From a virus (Duplodnaviria; Caudoviricetes), in the IMG/VR virus record IMGVR_UViG_3300037067_005519, positions 32,001-96,000 of that record: 64,000 nucleotides of DNA, one strand, 5' to 3'. Below the pieces are notes generated by a model that was given only the letters and a program-made list of their open reading frames with translations, ran no database searches and was not told where the DNA came from. The position numbers and the translations under genes were made by a program. Below, one piece after another: positions 36,491-54,313 of the stretch; positions within the stretch are counted from its first letter, which is position 1, and every line of letters starts with the position of its first letter.

Positions 36491-37483
36491 TTACCACCTT
36501 TGCGGACGGGCCATCTTTGCAAACATATCCTCTTCGAGAGAGCCGTCAGACTGTAGAGCGATGACCTTTTGTTCCATGTGACGGCACTTCTCATCGTTCT
36601 CTTCGCGGCTTAGATCACGGAAGACCCACCCGCTGCAAATTGCTTCCCAGCATTCGACAGCCCGGTTGAGCACCATCGTCTGATGGGTATTGCTTACACG
36701 AGCGCGCTGGTGGGCGACCCGCAGCAGGGGCTTGCCCTCGGGCATGAACTTGCTCACGATCTCGTCTATGCAGCAGACCACTTCCTCGTCGCCGACCTGC
36801 TCGCCGAGTAGCCAGCCATACATGCAAATCTGGTCGGCGTACTCCTCATTGGCTTCCTCCAAGTAGGTCTTATTGATCTCGAAGCCATGATGATAGTAGG
36901 GCACGTAATCCTTGTGCGCCGTATTGTGACTCTTGCTGGGCTTATACGGCGGCCCATAGGCGTCACGGCAGAGTCGGTAGTTCTTCGACGGGCTGGCTCC
37001 GTACTTCGAGCAGAATCCCTTGACCTTCCAGTCCAGGATCACATGGACGCCACACTCGTGAATGAAGCGGCAGTCAGGCTTGCCGAGGATCGGCACACCG
37101 TTGATCGTGCCTTCGACCTTGAACTCAAAGCGGGGCGACTCTTTTGACTTCTGCAAGAGGGTCAACAATTCCTCGAATGCGCCAGTCATCACGTAGCAGT
37201 CGTAGATGTACTTACCGGCGTCCAGAGCGAAGTCCCGATTCTGTGGCTCGACCTGGGCCTCGAAGATCGTCTGGAACTCAAACTGCGGATCGGCACCTTT
37301 GCCGAATAACCGCTCGTGCAACGCCGACTTGGCGTAGGCGTCGAAGCTCGCACCGACCGACATATAGTTCTCTTGCGGCACGCGCTGAGCACGAGTCTCA
37401 GCCAAGTGCTTGATGTAGAACTCTTCCTTGTCCTTGCCCCAGGTGGTTAGCGAGGAGTGACTAAGATACGTTGGCTTCCTCAT
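36491..37483 (-). CDS. PD-(D/E)xK exonuclease (recombination type)
   Basis: YLSHSSL; GKPD...ILDWK; Q..MY. Confidence 0.8.
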   Translation of the reverse strand: MRKPTYLSHSSLTTWGKDKEEFYIKHLAETRAQRVPQENYMSVGASFDAYAKSALHERLFGKGADPQFEFQTIFEAQVEPQNRDFALDAGKYIYDCYVMTGAFEELLTLLQKSKESPRFEFKVEGTINGVPILGKPDCRFIHECGVHVILDWKVKGFCSKYGASPSKNYRLCRDAYGPPYKPSKSHNTAHKDYVPYYHHGFEINKTYLEEANEEYADQICMYGWLLGEQVGDEEVVCCIDEIVSKFMPEGKPLLRVAHQRARVSNTHQTMVLNRAVECWEAICSGWVFRDLSREENDEKCRHMEQKVIALQSDGSLEEDMFAKMARPQRW

Positions 37484-37949
37484 GGTTCCTCTCGTCTGAA
37501 AGAATGTAGATGCCGTCCTTGTCACTGACGATATGCCAACCCACCAGTTCCGCGCGGCAGAACGAAATGATGAGGCGTAGATTCTCGATGAGCAGCGGAT
37601 GCCGCAGGGCTTCGCCCAATGGCATCCAGAACACGGTCTCGTCGGTCAAGGACTCAATCACATTGCGACCACGCAACGAGTCGTAATCGCAACGACAGAC
37701 GTAAACGATGAAGTCCGTACCCTCGATCGTGCCCATGATGCGGATTTGATCCTCTGGACACTCGATGCCAGTCTCCTCTTGAAGCTCGCGGCTTGCGGCT
37801 TTGTGGATCGTTTCTTCTGGCTCAATCTTGCCGCCAGGCAGGTTGTAGCGCCCAGCTTGCCAGGCAGGCTTCTTCTTCTCGATCAGAAGAACTTCCGGCC
37901 AATGGGCATGGGGTTGTGGGTGGGCAAAGCAAAGGACGTACTGGTTCAT
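37461..37949 (-). CDS. Nudix hydrolase
   Basis: PGGKIEPEETIHKAASRELQEETG. Confidence 0.92.
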   Translation of the reverse strand: MNQYVLCFAHPQPHAHWPEVLLIEKKKPAWQAGRYNLPGGKIEPEETIHKAASRELQEETGIECPEDQIRIMGTIEGTDFIVYVCRCDYDSLRGRNVIESLTDETVFWMPLGEALRHPLLIENLRLIISFCRAELVGWHIVSDKDGIYILSDERNHEEANVS

Positions 37950-38467
37950 GGCAGCATCTCCTCAATTGCAGAACGCAGATAATCGACGGCCATATCCTTT
38001 TCGTCACAGCCGACGTTCCAAGGGCGTGGGCAGATCAACGATGCACCACCGGCCTGACGGAACTCAAGCGCGTTGTTCGCGTTGTCGTCGATCAACAGGG
38101 TGCGGCTACAGGCGCACCACGACTTGTTCGGCGTGAGCACGAAACGACGGGCATAGCTGGGCATGTGCCTTGCGATCCAAAGCAACTTGCCTTCTGCTGA
38201 GCCAGGCCAGTTGGCGGGCTTCGAGCAGATGATGACGTTCTCCGGTCCTACGATCTCCTCACAGAGTCCCACAATAACTTCGCCATCTTCCATCCACGGA
38301 AGGTTGGCCCACCATTCGGCATCGGTGCCCGACCAGATGTCTTGATCGGACATGGGAAGCTCGCCCCGGTTGAACAGAGTCATGTCAGCCAGGTTGAGCT
38401 TCTTGGCGACGGTGTGATGTAGATCAACGATCACGCCATCCATGTCGAGAAAGATTTGTCGGTTCAC
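37946..38467 (-). CDS. HAD-family 5'(3')-nucleotidase
   Basis: FLDMDGVIVD; GKLLWI; LLIDD. Confidence 0.88.
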   Translation of the reverse strand: MNRQIFLDMDGVIVDLHHTVAKKLNLADMTLFNRGELPMSDQDIWSGTDAEWWANLPWMEDGEVIVGLCEEIVGPENVIICSKPANWPGSAEGKLLWIARHMPSYARRFVLTPNKSWCACSRTLLIDDNANNALEFRQAGGASLICPRPWNVGCDEKDMAVDYLRSAIEEMLP

Positions 38468-38636
38468 TGATTGAGTTCCTCCTGTAACTGATCGCGCTCG
38501 TTCTCCAAGTCCTTCACATCAGACTCAAGGTCAGCGACTTGATCCTGTGCTTCCTCCAATTCCTCCTGGAGATTGCACATTGGGCAATTGCATCCCTCAT
38601 AGACAACAACACAGTTCGCATGGTCTTCGCAGGTGG

Positions 38637-39722
38637 TCATTCGTTATCCTGTGCGCCCTTTCGATCGAGATAGTCGGCCGACACGCTTTTGAGAATCAGC
38701 CGGCCGCCGGTCGGAGCATAGAACTGCTCGGTCTGCGGAGTGACGACGCAACCTTCTCGACCCTTGAAGGCACACTTGATGCCTTCGGGTGCCATGACCG
38801 TCGTCGGGCCATAGGTGTGCTCTTGGATCAAGTCCTTGGTGAACGGACCTTCATAAAGGACCGGGACGAGATCAATGCCAAAGTCTTGGCACAGTTGCTT
38901 TACATCTGGCCAATCCAGGTACTTCCCGTTGACGCTGATGTCAAAAACGCGGTAGCCGTCCTTGGTGCCGTAGTCCATGTCTTGGACGCCGACGCCATAG
39001 ATTTCGCCGAAGATGATTGCCGCATTCCTCTCATCGCACAGGTGAGTGAGCAGACTGAGAATGCGTTCGTCCTCCAACGGCCGCCAGTAGATGGAAGTGT
39101 TCTCGCCTTCCGGCCTCTTCCGTCTTGTACGGTGACTGCCGGCCATGAACTCGAATTCGCCCATCTTGGGGATCAAGCCCACGCGGCTGTTTGTACCGTG
39201 AATCTTCTCGGTGATCCGAACCGGCGTCCCCTCAGCGATCGCATCGTTGAATCGCCAGTAGTGCTCGATCTCGGTGTACTTGTGGAACTGGTTGTCGTCA
39301 GGCGCAAGATCGCCATAGAAGTAGCGCACTGGCGGCTCATATTTCTGAGCGGCCCACATGCACGAGACATCGCTTCCAATCGCATGGTCATCCAGCAGGA
39401 CTGGAGCCGGGATGACAAAGCCGAAGCTAGGCTCGCCTCGCAGACGACAGGCTGCCACGCGGCACTGGCACTTGCCGGCCGGATGGTCCGCATCACCAGG
39501 GAACTCAGCGTGTTTGAGGTACTTCTGCACTCCAAGCAACTGGGCAACGTCAGGCGGCAGCAAGATGCCAGGCGGGAAGAAGACAACCCGCTGGCCCTTC
39601 TGGAATTCACCCTTGCCGGTGATGGTCGTGATGCCCTTGATGCCCGCGATCTCAAGTTTGGTCGCGTTCGGATGGGGTCTCACTTCGTCGATTGTAGTCA
39701 ACTCAACAAACACATTGGACAT
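38637..39722 (-). CDS. ATP-dependent RNA ligase, Rnl2-like DRB0094 family
   Basis: HPNATKLE N-domain; TEKIHGTN (motif I), FGEIYG, FDI, REGCVV, LKSVSADYL. Confidence 0.92.
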   Translation of the reverse strand: MSNVFVELTTIDEVRPHPNATKLEIAGIKGITTITGKGEFQKGQRVVFFPPGILLPPDVAQLLGVQKYLKHAEFPGDADHPAGKCQCRVAACRLRGEPSFGFVIPAPVLLDDHAIGSDVSCMWAAQKYEPPVRYFYGDLAPDDNQFHKYTEIEHYWRFNDAIAEGTPVRITEKIHGTNSRVGLIPKMGEFEFMAGSHRTRRKRPEGENTSIYWRPLEDERILSLLTHLCDERNAAIIFGEIYGVGVQDMDYGTKDGYRVFDISVNGKYLDWPDVKQLCQDFGIDLVPVLYEGPFTKDLIQEHTYGPTTVMAPEGIKCAFKGREGCVVTPQTEQFYAPTGGRLILKSVSADYLDRKGAQDNE

Positions 39723-51026: not shown

Positions 51027-52628
51027 TCATCGAACAAAATCCGCCATCACGGCCGGACAAGAGGCGTCAAACCCCACGACATCCAACATGCCGGCGTCGG
51101 AGGGATCAGCGATCGTGAAAGGTGTGGCCGTCATTCCTACGACGATCAATTTGGCGTCGATTCCCATGATCTGACGGTATTGTTTGAGGGCTTGAGTCGG
51201 GTGAATCTGCCCGGCCCACGTCTCGTTGTCGGTGTAGACCACGAAGGCATCCACTTCAAGACGCTGTTGTGTGGCATACATCATCGGGATGGCACAGTCA
51301 GTACCACCCATCGGTATGCGACTGATCTTCTGGACCAGTGCATCGAGCCGTTCCTTCTTCGAGATGTCAATCGGCACCAAATTGTGGGAGAATCCCATCA
51401 CATGAGTCTGCGGCTCAAGACGATGGGTGACCATCGCCATGCAGGCGGCGGCCTTGGCGGCGCTCAGGTGGGTGTTCGCCAGGAAGGACCATCCCATTGA
51501 GCCGGACACATCCAGGCTCAGCAGATGACGTTTCCCGGTCAACTCGATGGCATCGAAAGCCGAATAGAACGCTTCCTCAAGGGCATCTCTGATCTGGCCG
51601 ACAGGCTGCCAGGTAAGCGATCCCTTGATCCCGTGGCCCTGACTATAAGTTTCCGTCGCAATCAAAACGGAGAGCGGATGGACGCGAGCGCCACGCAGGC
51701 GATCGGGACTGGTCAGCACATTGCAGACCATGTTTGTGGACGCAGCCAACGGTTTCAGCAATCCGATGCTGGTCATCTTCCCCAGGTTGCGGATCAGCGC
51801 CGTGGGCGGCAAGTTGGGCAGGAGGGCTTCCCACACTCTGACGCTACCAAGCAGCGTGGTAGGGATGTGCTCCAAAGTCAGGCCATACTTCTGGATCAAG
51901 TGAGCGGCCCTTTTCTCGTCGCCAGACCCTAGAGAACTGATCTCCTCGAAGCCCTCCACGATCCACAACGGGTGTGTTGGCTCCAGGAAATCCTTGAGCA
52001 CATGCACCTTGCTGACAATCCAGCCATAAAGATCATTGCGATCGCCATCTTTCGTCTTGGGGTGACTCAGCCGCAAAACGTCACGATGGGTGTATCCAGC
52101 GCGATTGCGATACTTCGTCACCTGGTAAGCCAGCTTCTCCACCGGCTTATCGTTGTACCAGGCAGCGACGGCCTCACGCAGACCTCGGCCCCAGCCTCGC
52201 AGTTCCTTGCAGTTGGCAACGAATTGGAACAAGTGGGTCGCCGTGCGGCAGACACGAGGCAGTGCGCCCAAAGCCAGGCGGCGGCCATTGTCGTCACCTT
52301 GGCTTGCAACCAGGGCGAGGGCGAAGATCGCGGCGTCGTTCTTTGGCGCACGGCCAACTTCGCTGATACCAGCGATCGCTTCGACGGTCCTCTCGGCGTC
52401 GATCGTCGCGCAGGTCATCACGACGCCGGCATTGTTGGCCGTCAACTTCTGCTCGCCAACATAGTACGTCCCGCCATCGGAACCAAGGATCAAGAACCGC
52501 TGGAGTCTTCCCCAGGAGTCCAAGACGAAGGTGTATCCTCCGGCGTTGTTCTGCTCTTGCTTCTTGCCGGGAATCGGCCGGCTCTGCGGAGTGACTCGGG
52601 ACGAAACATGCTTAGCGAGGGTTTTCAT
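51027..52628 (-). CDS. rsr: Ro60/TROVE-domain RNA-binding protein (Rsr) with vWA domain
   Basis: NNAGGY..LQRFLILGSDGGTYY; RGWGRGLR; KYRNRAGYTHRDVLRLSHP; ALIRNLG; LDVSGSM; GGTDC; YTDNETW; LDVVGFD. Start reset to MKTLAK with GGAG RBS. Confidence 0.97.
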   Translation of the reverse strand: MKTLAKHVSSRVTPQSRPIPGKKQEQNNAGGYTFVLDSWGRLQRFLILGSDGGTYYVGEQKLTANNAGVVMTCATIDAERTVEAIAGISEVGRAPKNDAAIFALALVASQGDDNGRRLALGALPRVCRTATHLFQFVANCKELRGWGRGLREAVAAWYNDKPVEKLAYQVTKYRNRAGYTHRDVLRLSHPKTKDGDRNDLYGWIVSKVHVLKDFLEPTHPLWIVEGFEEISSLGSGDEKRAAHLIQKYGLTLEHIPTTLLGSVRVWEALLPNLPPTALIRNLGKMTSIGLLKPLAASTNMVCNVLTSPDRLRGARVHPLSVLIATETYSQGHGIKGSLTWQPVGQIRDALEEAFYSAFDAIELTGKRHLLSLDVSGSMGWSFLANTHLSAAKAAACMAMVTHRLEPQTHVMGFSHNLVPIDISKKERLDALVQKISRIPMGGTDCAIPMMYATQQRLEVDAFVVYTDNETWAGQIHPTQALKQYRQIMGIDAKLIVVGMTATPFTIADPSDAGMLDVVGFDASCPAVMADFVR

Positions 52629-52647
52629 GCTACGATCTCCAGAGAGG

Positions 52648-52705
52648 GTTAGGCTAGGAAGTGCCGTGGGTAAGTATCCGATAACCCACGAGCGTCGGCC
52701 CACAC
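52648..52705 (-). ncRNA. Y-RNA-type Ro-binding hairpin F, adjoining the rsr RBS
   Basis: GGGCCGA-CGCTCGTGG-GTTATC...ACCCACGGCACTTCCTAGCCT. Confidence 0.75.
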
Positions 52706-52716
52706 ATCACGCGAGT

Positions 52717-52780
52717 ACGTTGGGCAAGTTGTTGCCGTGGGTCTTCTATGCCTGATAACCCACGAGCTTCGGCCCAATGT
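52717..52780 (-). ncRNA. Minimal Y RNA E
   Basis: TTGGGCCGA-AGCTCGTGG-GTTATC...ACCCACGGCAACAACTTGCCCAA. Confidence 0.85.
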
Positions 52781-52923
52781 TCGGTCTGACTCGCAAACTC
52801 ACCGGCCCAACAGGACGTTCTTCAAGCGCGCCGCTACTTGCATTGCCAAGCGTCTGGCCACGTACTGCGCCTTGAGGGGCGGTTTACAGGTTCCCTTTCG
52901 GTGAGTCTTACGAATCGAATGTT
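52777..52923 (-). ncRNA. Rod-shaped RNA with central bubble (6S-like)
   Basis: GATTCGTAAGACTCACCG/CGGTGAGTTTGCGAGTC closing stem, internal bubble, long terminal stem. Confidence 0.5.
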
Positions 52924-52925
52924 TG

Positions 52926-52990
52926 CCGGGCAAGGTGTGCGATTGGTGTTGGTCAACTAATGGTGAGATAACCAATCAGCTTCGGCCCGG
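52926..52990 (-). ncRNA. Minimal Y RNA D
   Basis: CCGGGCCGA-AGCTGATTG-GTTATC...ACCAATCGCACACCTTGCCCGG. Confidence 0.85.
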
Positions 52991-52991
52991 A

Positions 52992-53123
52992 GGCACGTTG
53001 GCGGGAGTCGAACCCACGACCACAGGTTCCCTTGTTGATAACGCTTCCAGTTCGGCCCATTAGGCAAGAGACTTGAAAGCGGTTCTTTTGACCTGTGCTC
53101 TATCCATCTGAGCTACAACGTGC
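52992..53123 (-). ncRNA. tRNA-bodied Y RNA C (Ro-binding helix inserted in the anticodon loop)
   Basis: GCACGTTG/CAACGTGC acceptor, GCTC/GAGC D arm, CAGGT/ACCTG stem, GTGGG-TTCGACT-CCCGC T arm; insert CGCTTTCAAGTCTCTTGCC-TAAT-GGGCCGAACTGGAAGCGTTATC. Confidence 0.85.
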
Positions 53124-53130
53124 ATAACAG

Positions 53131-53254
53131 CGGACACCGGCAGGACTCGAACCTGCGCCTCTCACTTAACAGGTGATAACGCTGACCCTTCGGCCCTTAC
53201 AAGGCAACGGTGGGTAAGCGGTTTTAGCGCTCTGCCAACTGAGCTACGGCATCC
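53131..53254 (-). ncRNA. tRNA-Asn-bodied Y RNA B (Ro-binding helix inserted between D arm and anticodon arm)
   Basis: GGATGCCG/CGGTGTCC acceptor, D arm, insert, TCAC-CTGTTAA-GTGA anticodon arm, GCAGG-TTCGAGT-CCTGC T arm. Confidence 0.85.
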
Positions 53255-53261
53255 ATACAAG

Positions 53262-53321
53262 GAGGACAAGGTGCGCGGACGGGGTTCATCATTGCAGGAT
53301 AACCCGCCCACATCGGCCCTC
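53262..53321 (-). ncRNA. Minimal Y RNA A (first unit of the array)
   Basis: GAGGGCCGA-TGTGGGCGG-GTTATC...CCGTCCGCGCACCTTGTCCTC. Confidence 0.85.
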
Positions 53322-53355
53322 TACTAAGACGACGTAAATTAAACCGACATTTCCC
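53319..53355 (-). promoter_or_regulatory. Putative ECF-type promoter for the Y RNA array and rsr
   Basis: GGAAAT-N17-CGTCTTAG; near-identical copy at 30284; implied +1 falls at the 5' end of unit A. Confidence 0.65.
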
Positions 53356-54240: not shown

Positions 54241-54313
54241 CTGCATCGCCTGGACTCGAACCAGGGACATCCGCATTAACAGTGCGGCGCACTACCAACT
54301 GTGCTACGATGCA
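54241..54313 (-). tRNA. tRNA-Asn(GTT)
   Basis: TGCATCG/CGATGCA; CCGCA-CTGTTAA-TGCGG; CCTGG-TTCGAGT-CCAGG. Confidence 0.93.

What the first reader, a model, noticed from the sequence alone, without database searches (positions are those of the whole stretch)
53131..53254. Unit B is a complete tRNA-Asn(GTT) body carrying a ~50 nt Ro-binding insert
Seen: removing the insert after GAGC-G-C restores a 5-bp anticodon stem CTCAC/GTGAG around CT-GTT-AA, a 4-nt variable region and a perfect T arm. The loop is identical to that of the intact tRNA-Asn about 1 kb away (54241-54313). Inference: it could be a Ro60-tethered anticodon decoy for anticodon nucleases, a tRNA maturable by excision and ligation, or an evolutionary intermediate from tRNA to Y RNA.
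Basis: partly seen in the sequence, partly recalled or inferred. Interest (0 to 1): 0.8.

Follow-up and report, generated by a model that had tools for sequence, protein, structure and literature searches.

The report
tRNA-shaped Y RNA keeping its anticodon arm
Just upstream of its own Ro60 (Rsr) gene, this phage encodes a small RNA built like a complete tRNA, anticodon arm included, with a Ro60-docking hairpin branching off the anticodon stem. It is most likely a non-decoding partner RNA of the known YrlA kind in normal tRNA strand order, not a tRNA awaiting splicing.

Summary
On the minus strand, 53254-53132 is a full tRNA body with a 50-nt hairpin carrying the Y-RNA motifs GGGCCGAAG and GUUAUC. 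With that hairpin set aside, a 5-bp anticodon stem, the loop CUGUUAA, a 4-nt variable loop and a perfect T arm remain.

Thirteen homologs beside phage rsr genes place the hairpin between nt 28 and 29 of the anticodon stem. Every helix covaries, including both parts of the split stem (96% paired against 73% in shuffles, 0/500).

Permuted YrlA RNAs of cultured actinophages carry the same split arm. Microbacterium phage FuzzBuster has an identical Asn-like arm. Chen et al. 2014 called this hairpin the "V" arm.

The arms follow tRNA loop rules, but decoding is unlikely:
- position 73 pairs with -1;
- Ser, Tyr and Leu anticodons sit on bodies with short variable loops;
- nothing resembles a known intron.

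My reading is a YrlA-type, Rsr-bound tRNA mimic in unpermuted order. The decoy idea remains open and untested, and excision is disfavoured.

I found no paper describing this layout. Earlier notes of this scan describe the same class on other DNA, so I rate it a new variant of a known kind.

The parts
53132..53254 (-). Unit B: a whole tRNA-order Y RNA, from G-1 to C73 (123 nt)
   Evidence: Sequence. Model R1 scores it 121 bits. Covariation.
53247..53254 (-). Acceptor 5' strand, G-1 plus GAUGCCG. It pairs with 53132-53139 to give an 8-bp helix.
   Evidence: Helix 1 is 99% paired and all 8 pairs show changes on both sides. The -1:73 pair is GC in 10 sequences, AU in 1, CG in 1.
53229..53244 (-). 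D arm GCUC-AGUUGGCA-GAGC, with A14, G15, G18, G19 and A21
   Evidence: Helix 2 is 100% paired. L005 has a compensatory GUUC/GAAC version.
53226..53227 (-). C27 U28, the proximal half of the split anticodon stem. Pairs with A42 G43 at 53161-53162.
   Evidence: Helix 3 is 100% paired. Pair 28:42 is UA in 6 sequences, GC in 4, CG in 1.
53176..53225 (-). 50-nt Ro60/Rsr-docking hairpin: AAAAC, stem CGCUUACCC/GGGUCAGCG, internal loop with CGAA, distal stem GCCU/GGGC capped by UGUAA, then UUAU
   Evidence: The motifs GGGCCGAAG (53196-53188) and GUUAUC match Y RNA and YrlA. Helices 4 and 5 covary.
53163..53175 (-). Distal anticodon hairpin CAC-CUGUUAA-GUG, anticodon GUU at 53170-53168
   Evidence: Helix 6 is 97% paired. 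RNAalifold predicts it independently. The arm is identical in L005 and in Microbacterium phage FuzzBuster.
53140..53160 (-). Variable loop AGGC and T arm GCAGG-UUCGAGU-CCUGC
   Evidence: Helix 7 is 100% paired. The Rfam tRNA model aligns the anticodon and T arms at 26 bits.
52993..53123 (-). Unit A: the neighbouring tRNA-order Y RNA. Its Ro hairpin replaces the anticodon loop, and the 5-bp stem CAGGU/ACCUG is kept.
   Evidence: 71 bits. L005 has a compensatory CAAGU/ACUUG version.
52646..53325 (-). Array of Y-RNA modules packed 3-8 nt apart. Four are minimal Y RNAs: 53325-53259, 52990-52923, 52781-52717 and 52706-52646.
   Evidence: Matches to Rfam ceN72-3 (a nematode sRNA family; I recall these sbRNAs as Y RNA homologs) and folds. 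No promoter-like or terminator-like site lies inside the array.
51027..52637 (-). rsr, the phage Ro60 ortholog
   Evidence: Pfam TROVE at 1e-43 and vWA_Ro60 at 1e-68.
54241..54313 (-). Genuine tRNA-Asn(GTT), used for comparison
   Evidence: ARAGORN and Rfam at 70 bits.

Best explanation
Unit B is a Y RNA of the YrlA kind, a tRNA-mimicking partner RNA of Ro60/Rsr, wired in ordinary tRNA strand order.

The Rsr-docking helix is a loop-capped hairpin that branches from the 5' strand of the anticodon stem between nt 28 and 29. The RNA therefore keeps open acceptor ends, D and T arms, and a full 5-bp, 7-nt-loop anticodon arm.

How I think it works:
- It is co-transcribed with five other Y-type units and rsr.
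- tRNA-processing enzymes cut it out. RNase P makes the 5' end, the 3' end is trimmed, and CCA may be added.
- It binds phage Rsr through the hairpin.
- It then displays a whole tRNA shape as the effector or bait module for a tRNA-binding partner.
- It does not decode and is not spliced.

Shown here: the fold, its conservation and covariation, its linkage to rsr, and its identity with the 'V'-hairpin module of permuted YrlAs.

Inferred: Rsr binding, the processing steps and the partner.
For: - rsr lies about 500 nt downstream, and the Y-RNA motifs sit inside the insert.
- Thirteen homologs next to phage rsr genes fold the same way. 96.2% of cells pair against 73.4% in shuffles, 29 of 35 pairs change on both sides, and 0 of 500 shuffles reach this.
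- RNAalifold finds the same helices without being given my structure.
- The acceptor ends pair within each unit and covary. In L012 the unit lies directly between Y-type sequence on both sides, with no neighbouring T or D arm, so there the order must be native.
- Permuted YrlAs of phages FuzzBuster and Catera have the same 2+3 split arm. FuzzBuster's is identical to unit B's.
- M. smegmatis YrlA binds Rsr, is cut by RNase P and receives CCA (PMC4201824).
- Evidence against decoding: C73 pairs with G-1, and class-II anticodons sit on bodies with 4-5-nt variable loops.
Against: - There is no expression, end-mapping or binding data for this RNA.
- The single-sequence MFE of unit B prefers a different D/anticodon pairing (-48.8 kcal/mol against -30.5 for the consensus fold), although that alternative is not conserved.
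- The L005 ortholog has CCAAA in place of CCGAA in the docking motif.
- Rfam YrlA scores only 28 bits here, and that hit spans the B-A junction.
- An 8-bp acceptor helix is not the usual RNase P substrate.
Confidence: 0.75

Rival explanations
1. Anticodon bait or decoy. The Rsr-tethered anticodon arm is the working part. It would intercept or report host enzymes that read anticodon loops, such as anticodon nucleases or modification enzymes. The phage RNA ligase might reseal it. This refines the main reading rather than excluding it.
For: - The loops obey tRNA rules: U33 in most units, a purine at 37, and G37 almost only after G36.
- The arm is frozen in some lineages. L007 and L020 differ at 67 alignment columns, none of them in the arm.
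- The arm is swapped in others. Five of 14 differences between L008 and L069 fall in the 7-nt loop.
- The arm is 100% identical between the window and L005, while other helices changed.
- An RNA ligase gene lies at 38637-39722.
Against: - About 27 different anticodons occur, with no clear focus on known nuclease targets.
- Sister units A and C lack the loop yet are conserved.
- The orthologous unit in L025 has GAU in place of GUU.
- No cleavage data exist.
Confidence: 0.2
2. Maturable tRNA-Asn. The 50-nt hairpin is removed and the halves are ligated to give a working tRNA.
For: After in-silico removal ARAGORN calls tRNA-Asn(GTT). The tertiary-contact nucleotides (U8, A14, G15:C48, G18 G19, G26, the T loop) are intact. 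The phage encodes an RNA ligase.
Against: - The insert carries conserved, covarying Y-RNA motifs and sits next to rsr.
- Rfam gives no intron match.
- The site, 28/29 in the stem, is not a known bacterial intron site, and no bulge-helix-bulge is visible.
- C73 is paired, whereas Asn identity needs G73. The acceptor stem has G1-C72, whereas the phage's own tRNA-Asn has U1-A72.
- Sister units pair Ser, Tyr and Leu anticodons with short variable loops.
- A normal tRNA-Asn already lies 1 kb away.
Confidence: 0.05
3. Permuted reading. The real RNA is a classical YrlA that runs from the 3' half of B's hairpin, through B's anticodon and T arms and an acceptor-like hairpin made from the B-A spacer, to A's D arm and the 5' half of A's hairpin.
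For: Rfam YrlA aligns T(B)-spacer-D(A) at 28 bits. B's 3' acceptor strand can form about 6 pairs, 3 of them G-U, with A's 5' acceptor strand (read). Many related phages do use the permuted order.
Against: - Each hairpin's two halves match their own partner better than the neighbour's (GGGUCAGCG/CGCUUACCC in B, GGAAGCG/CGCUUUC in A).
- The hairpins are closed by short loops.
- The acceptor helices within each unit are 8 bp and covary.
- The G70-to-A change in L005 keeps the native pair but breaks the junction pair.
- Native units exist without a tRNA-like neighbour.
Confidence: 0.07
4. Relic. The anticodon arm is a leftover of the tRNA from which the unit arose and has no role of its own.
For: Units without the arm are conserved as well. 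Anticodon identity drifts between orthologs, GUU in the window and GAU in L025.
Against: The arm is kept with compensatory changes across Rsr proteins only 45-50% identical. It obeys the U33, R37 and G36-G37 rules. In close pairs it is the most conserved segment.
Confidence: 0.12

Closest known systems
YrlA (Y RNA-like A; Rfam RF02553; S. Typhimurium, M. smegmatis, mycobacteriophages; Chen et al. 2014 PMC4201824; Wang et al. 2018 bioRxiv 10.1101/312249)
   Same: It is encoded next to rsr and has the Ro60-binding motif GNCGAAN0-1G and the YUAY/GUUAUC motif. Its D and T arms carry the tRNA tertiary-contact nucleotides. There is a hairpin just 5' of the T arm, called 'V' by Chen et al. Phage YrlAs (FuzzBuster, Catera) have the same split arm.
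   Different: The strand order is that of a tRNA: the acceptor ends are open and the Ro helix is capped by a loop. YrlA has the reverse arrangement. The published description says YrlA lacks an anticodon loop and a free CCA end. Here the 'V' hairpin plus two further pairs forms a 5-bp anticodon stem with a 7-nt loop. The Rfam model does not reach its threshold (28 bits against 69).
Canonical tRNA-Asn(GUU), for example the phage's own at 54313-54241
   Same: The 7-nt loop CUGUUAA is identical. The cloverleaf elements and tertiary-contact nucleotides are present.
   Different: A 50-nt branch interrupts the anticodon stem. C73 pairs with G-1, where tRNA-Asn has G73. The pair at 1:72 is G1-C72, where the phage tRNA-Asn has U1-A72. 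The stems are unrelated. Neither ARAGORN nor Rfam detects it as it stands.
D. radiodurans Yrn1 (Chen et al. 2014)
   Same: It is a Y RNA drawn with a T arm and a possible 'anticodon arm'.
   Different: Yrn1's Ro stem takes the place of the acceptor stem. Its loop has 6 nt, and its D arm is not evident.
Permuted and intron-bearing tRNA genes of algae and archaea (discussed in Wang et al. 2018)
   Same: A tRNA body is interrupted or rearranged around the anticodon arm.
   Different: Those are processed by splicing endonucleases at bulge-helix-bulge sites into decoding tRNAs. [quoted passage not shown] No such site is visible here.

Membership tests
YrlA-type Y RNA | Ro60/Rsr-binding motif GNCGAAN0-1G on the 5' strand of a bulged helix | tested here: met
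   GCCGAAG lies within GGGCCGAAG at 53196-53188, in a covarying helix. The motif definition is from PMC4201824.
YrlA-type Y RNA | tRNA-like D and T arms with conserved tertiary-contact nucleotides | tested here: met
   U8, A14, G15:C48, G18 G19, A21, G53 and UUCGA are present. Helices 2 and 7 are 100% paired.
YrlA-type Y RNA | Encoded within about 4 kb of an rsr gene | tested here: met
   rsr lies at 51027-52637, about 500 nt downstream on the same strand. Most homologous units are also beside rsr.
YrlA-type Y RNA | Permuted order: Ro stem formed by the 5' and 3' ends, T arm before D arm, acceptor stem closed by a loop | tested here: not met
   The order is acceptor, D, anticodon arm with Ro hairpin, T, acceptor. 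The ends are open and the Ro helix is capped by UGUAA.
YrlA-type Y RNA | Reaches the Rfam RF02553 gathering score | tested here: not met
   28.3 bits against a threshold of 69, and the hit spans T(B)-spacer-D(A). Accepted phage-type YrlAs also fail, at 33-37 bits.
YrlA-type Y RNA | Bound by Rsr in cells | not testable with these tools
   This needs Rsr immunoprecipitation or a gel-shift assay.
Decoding tRNA-Asn | Detected as a tRNA: continuous cloverleaf, Rfam tRNA at 29 bits or more | tested here: not met
   ARAGORN makes no call, and the Rfam match is a partial one at 26 bits. It is called only after the insert is removed by hand.
Decoding tRNA-Asn | Asn identity set: anticodon GUU plus discriminator G73 (established identity rules) | tested here: not met
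   The GUU anticodon is present, but position 73 is C and pairs with G-1. The -1:73 pair covaries.
Intron-containing tRNA | A recognised intron type: group I in the anticodon loop, or bulge-helix-bulge | tested here: not met
   No Rfam intron family matches. The insert is 50 nt, sits at 28/29 within the stem, and carries Y-RNA motifs.

The most novel reading that the evidence does not exclude
In phage Ro60 particles the anticodon arm is a specificity module. Rsr-tethered, tRNA-order (or permuted) Y RNAs would present a chosen anticodon loop to enzymes that read anticodons, for example host anticodon nucleases or anticodon-loop modification enzymes. The loop would be swapped on a constant scaffold as targets change.

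The tandem tRNA-order units would also be the living form of the 'dimeric tRNA' state from which permuted YrlA was proposed to arise.
Probability: 0.2. Interest if true: 0.85.

Novelty: new variant of a known kind. Interest (0 to 1): 0.6.

Why it matters
The partner of the tRNA-like domain of bacterial Y RNAs is still unknown. Published work describes that domain as lacking an anticodon loop and free ends.

This RNA and its relatives show that phage Ro60 systems often display an entire tRNA, including a rule-abiding anticodon arm, and in either strand order. Three consequences follow:
- The published "V arm" is better read as an anticodon arm.
- Candidate partners widen from the elbow-binding proteins expected so far to enzymes that also read anticodon loops.
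- The proposed dimeric-tRNA origin of YrlA becomes testable on concrete sequences.

It also explains a class of unannotated intergenic RNAs in cultured actinophages. Some gene finders might mistake them for intron-bearing tRNAs.

Tried and rejected
- blastn of the array against cultured phages found only one 39-nt match, to FuzzBuster. It later proved to be the shared anticodon and T-arm module.
- Single-sequence folding of unit B gave an alternative pairing of the D region with the anticodon hairpin. I rejected it because it is not conserved, and RNAalifold recovers the cloverleaf-type helices.
- The ARAGORN call after insert removal is weak evidence, because type-A units with arbitrary loops were also called.
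- L035:1673-1812 first looked like a native unit. Its acceptor pairs poorly, and the T-hairpin-D order fits a permuted chain, so I dropped it.
- The Rsr tree, meant to count switches of strand order, was only a quick tree with an unresolved backbone. It allows anywhere from 1 to 5 switches.
- The reviews PMC10870794 and PMC6047535, and Burroughs & Aravind 2016, are not held.
- Two genome scans for M. smegmatis YrlA using primer sequences from Chen et al. found nothing. The match of the 21-nt primer CACTTCTAATGGAATGGTCGC to the arm pattern is therefore only suggestive.
- I saw no enrichment of particular anticodons that I could defend statistically.

Full report
**Context.** The window is part of a 148,650-bp IMG/VR phage record with direct terminal repeats. 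Everything relevant lies on the minus strand.
- ORF 51027-52637 is a Ro60/Rsr ortholog (Pfam TROVE 1e-43, vWA_Ro60 1e-68).
- The 700 nt upstream hold no convincing ORF. They hold six RNA modules that share GGGCCGA-N9-GUUAUC.
- Four are minimal Y RNAs. Rfam aligns them to the nematode family ceN72-3/ceN74-2, which I recall as stem-bulge RNAs, the nematode Y RNA homologs. The best match is 37 bits.
- Two, units B and A, are tRNA-shaped.
- The units lie 3-8 nt apart, with no sigma-70-like promoter or terminator between them. This looks like one transcript that continues into rsr.

**The observation.** Unit B (53254-53132) reads as follows:
- G-1
- acceptor GAUGCCG
- U8 A9
- D arm GCUC/AGUUGGCA/GAGC
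- G26
- C27 U28
- a 50-nt hairpin
- C29 A30 C31
- loop CUGUUAA
- GUG, then A42 G43
- variable loop AGGC
- T arm GCAGG/UUCGAGU/CCUGC
- acceptor CGGUGUC
- C73

The hairpin is AAAAC, stem CGCUUACCC/GGGUCAGCG, an internal loop with CGAA, distal stem GCCU/GGGC capped by UGUAA, then UUAU. It carries the Rsr-binding motif GNCGAAN0-1G and the conserved YUAY of Chen et al. 2014.

The loop equals that of the true tRNA-Asn at 54313-54241. The stems and acceptor of the two RNAs are unrelated, so unit B is not a recent copy of that gene. CUGUUAA is, from my knowledge of bacterial tRNAs, the usual loop of a bacterial tRNA-Asn.

**Homologs.**
- The Rsr protein retrieved three related IMG/VR loci.
- A pattern scan for the T loop, GUUAUC and GGGYCRA retrieved 68 more. 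Rsr is encoded in 46 of the loci held.
- L005 (Rsr 80% identical) has orthologs of B and A, plus a third tRNA-shaped unit with no anticodon arm.
- In the L005 copy of B, the D stem (GCUC/GAGC to GUUC/GAAC) and the T stem (GCAGG/CCUGC to GCGGG/CCCGC) changed on both sides and stay paired. In the acceptor, a one-sided change turns U3-G70 into U3-A70. The 23 nt around the anticodon hairpin are identical.

I parsed all hits for an acceptor helix made within one unit. This found tRNA-order units in many loci, of three types:
- Type A: the Ro hairpin replaces the anticodon loop. Examples are window unit A, L003, L005, L025, L065 and a third copy in this same phage outside the window.
- Type B: the Ro hairpin branches from the stem and the anticodon hairpin is kept.
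- Type C: the whole arm is replaced (L005, L065).

**The split stem.** In every type-B unit, the two nucleotides after position 26 pair with the two nucleotides that follow the hairpin. The combinations seen are CU/AG, CG/CG, CC/GG and UU/AA. The Ro arm therefore sits between nt 28 and 29 of a 5-bp anticodon stem.

I built a covariance model from ten units. It found more units, and I aligned the 13 best-scoring type-B units. On that alignment:
- 96.2% of cells pair, against 73.4% in shuffles.
- 29 of 35 pairs have changes on both sides.
- 0 of 500 shuffles reach any of the five measures.
- Structures slid by 1-3 columns drop to 38-45% paired.
- The proximal stem (27:43, 28:42) is 100% paired. 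Pair 28:42 is UA in 6 sequences, GC in 4 and CG in 1.
- The distal stem is 97% paired.
- The acceptor is an 8-bp helix, because -1 pairs with 73 (GC 10, AU 1, CG 1).

This alignment was fitted to my structure, which can inflate pairing. However, RNAalifold, which was not given the structure, predicts the acceptor, D arm, both Ro stems, the anticodon hairpin and the T arm.

One caveat: the nearest-neighbour energy of the consensus fold of unit B (-30.5 kcal/mol) is well above its single-sequence MFE (-48.8). The MFE pairs the D region with the anticodon hairpin. That alternative is not shared by the homologs.

**Relation to known YrlA.** Published YrlA has the T arm before the D arm, a loop-closed acceptor stem and a Ro stem formed by the RNA ends. 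Wang et al. state that it lacks an anticodon loop and a free CCA end. Chen et al. noted a less conserved hairpin 5' of the T arm and called it V, for variable arm.

In the permuted phage units of my set, that hairpin shows the same design. It has a 3-bp distal stem and a 7-nt loop, followed by two nucleotides that pair with the two nucleotides after the downstream D arm.
- Microbacterium phage FuzzBuster carries a permuted YrlA whose arm, UAU-CAC-CUGUUAA-GUG-AG, is identical to unit B's.
- Mycobacterium phage Catera has CUC-AUUGCAA-GAG-AG with CU after the D arm.
- Neither is annotated in GenBank.
- The Rfam YrlA model hits them only locally (33-37 bits against a threshold of 69), and its consensus has no such hairpin.

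Unit B is thus the tRNA-order version of a module already present in YrlA-type RNAs of cultured actinophages. M. smegmatis YrlA is Rsr-bound, cut by RNase P and extended with CCA. This gives experimental precedent for the processing I infer. A primer in that paper fits the arm pattern, but I could not retrieve the gene itself.

**Is the loop a real anticodon loop?** I found 45 units with a 3-bp distal stem, giving 44 distinct arms with about 27 different anticodons.
- U33 is present in most, and position 37 is always a purine.
- G37 occurs in 6 of 7 arms with G36 and in at most 2 of the remaining 37 arm readings, one of them an alternative frame. From my own knowledge, this is the G36-G37 coupling typical of tRNAs that are m1G37 substrates.
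- The arm can be frozen. L007 and L020 differ at 67 columns overall, none of them in the arm.
- The arm can also be replaced on a constant scaffold. L008 and L069 differ at 14 columns of the RNA body, and 5 of those fall in the 7-nt loop.

These patterns argue for selection on the loop. The sequences are related, so the counts are not independent events.

**Not a decoder.**
- Position 73 is paired, and it is C in 10 of the 13. As I recall the established identity rules, that fits none of the cognate sets for Asn, Cys, Ser, Ile, Lys, Tyr or Met.
- Ser (GCU, UGA), Tyr (GUA) and Leu (CAG, UAG) anticodons sit on bodies with 4-5-nt variable loops. The phage's own tRNA-Ser is 90 nt long.
- One unit has an 8-nt loop and one has A33.
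- Rfam finds no intron family.
- In my judgement, a 50-nt helix bound to a 60-kDa ring would not fit the ribosomal decoding sites.

**Strand order in this phage.**
- Rfam YrlA aligns T(B)-spacer-D(A) at 28 bits, so a permuted read-through is conceivable.
- However, each hairpin's halves fit their own partner better than the neighbour's.
- The loops are short caps.
- The within-unit acceptor helices covary.
- L005's G70-to-A change preserves the native pair only.
- The Rsr tree puts the window in a well-supported clade of six phages that all have tRNA-order units. Elsewhere the two orders are mixed, but the backbone is unresolved, allowing 1-5 switches.

The tandem B-A layout is what the 'dimeric tRNA' model for the origin of YrlA requires. 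It adds one point: the Ro helix can pre-exist as a hairpin within each tRNA. The direction of change remains open.

**Function.** What the particle does is unknown for all YrlA-type RNAs. I commit to a tRNA-mimic effector module on an Rsr particle, released by tRNA-processing enzymes. I treat the anticodon-bait idea as an open refinement with about 0.2 probability. The phage encodes an RNA ligase (PF09414) next to NT5C-type and NUDIX proteins about 13 kb away. This fits an RNA-repair setting but proves nothing.

**Novelty.** In the papers I could search, I found no description of tRNA-order Y RNAs or of the V hairpin as a split anticodon arm. Earlier notes of this scan report the same class on other DNA: phages, cyanobacteria and giant viruses, including 'V arm behaves as an anticodon arm'. 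My results agree with those notes and were obtained independently here. I rate the finding a new variant of a known kind.

Noticed in passing
Own genome G000:C1:128852-128975 (+), locus L076; outside the window: A third tRNA-order Y RNA lies in the same phage, about 43 kb from rsr. It is type A, with anticodon stem CAGGU/ACCUG and a U-1:A73 pair, and scores 59 bits with model R1.
   Followed up: partly
window 53254 with 53132, and column 1 with column 146 of alignment A3: Position -1 pairs with position 73 and the pair covaries (GC 10, AU 1, CG 1). The acceptor helix is therefore 8 bp, as in bacterial tRNA-His. How this affects RNase P cleavage or charging is unexplained.
   Followed up: partly
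L005:2573-2670 and L065:4541-4639: These are type-C units: tRNA-order RNAs in which the Ro hairpin replaces the whole anticodon arm and variable loop. GUUAUC runs straight into the T stem, and position 8 is A.
   Followed up: no
L081 (Microbacterium phage FuzzBuster, MN062720.1) 2205-2335; L084 (Mycobacterium phage Catera) 2198-2350; L080 (Gordonia phage Cashline) 2248-2392: Cultured actinophages carry YrlA-type RNAs with anticodon-like arms (GUU, UGC, UUG) upstream of the 'Ro-like RNA binding protein' gene. None is annotated in the GenBank records.
   Followed up: partly
L062:6955-7084 (-): This tRNA-order unit appears to have an 8-nt anticodon-type loop (CAUACCAA) between CAC and GUG.
   Followed up: no
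L005:2371-2392: The ortholog of unit B has GGGCCAAAU where the window has GGGCCGAAG. The presumed Rsr-contact motif is altered while the rest of the RNA is kept.
   Followed up: no
window 52781-52923 (-): About 140 nt between two minimal Y RNAs carry no Ro motif and match no Rfam family. This may be another structured RNA in the array.
   Followed up: no
L003:2327-2446: An RNA with an acceptor stem and T arm (GUGUGGG...CCCACAC, T loop UUCAAGU) but no Ro motif sits inside another phage's Y RNA array.
   Followed up: no
window 37461-39722 (-): Three adjacent genes encode an RNA ligase (PF09414, with an OB-fold N-terminal domain), an NT5C-type nucleotidase and a NUDIX protein. No rtcB or rtcA was seen among the ORFs I scanned.
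   Followed up: partly
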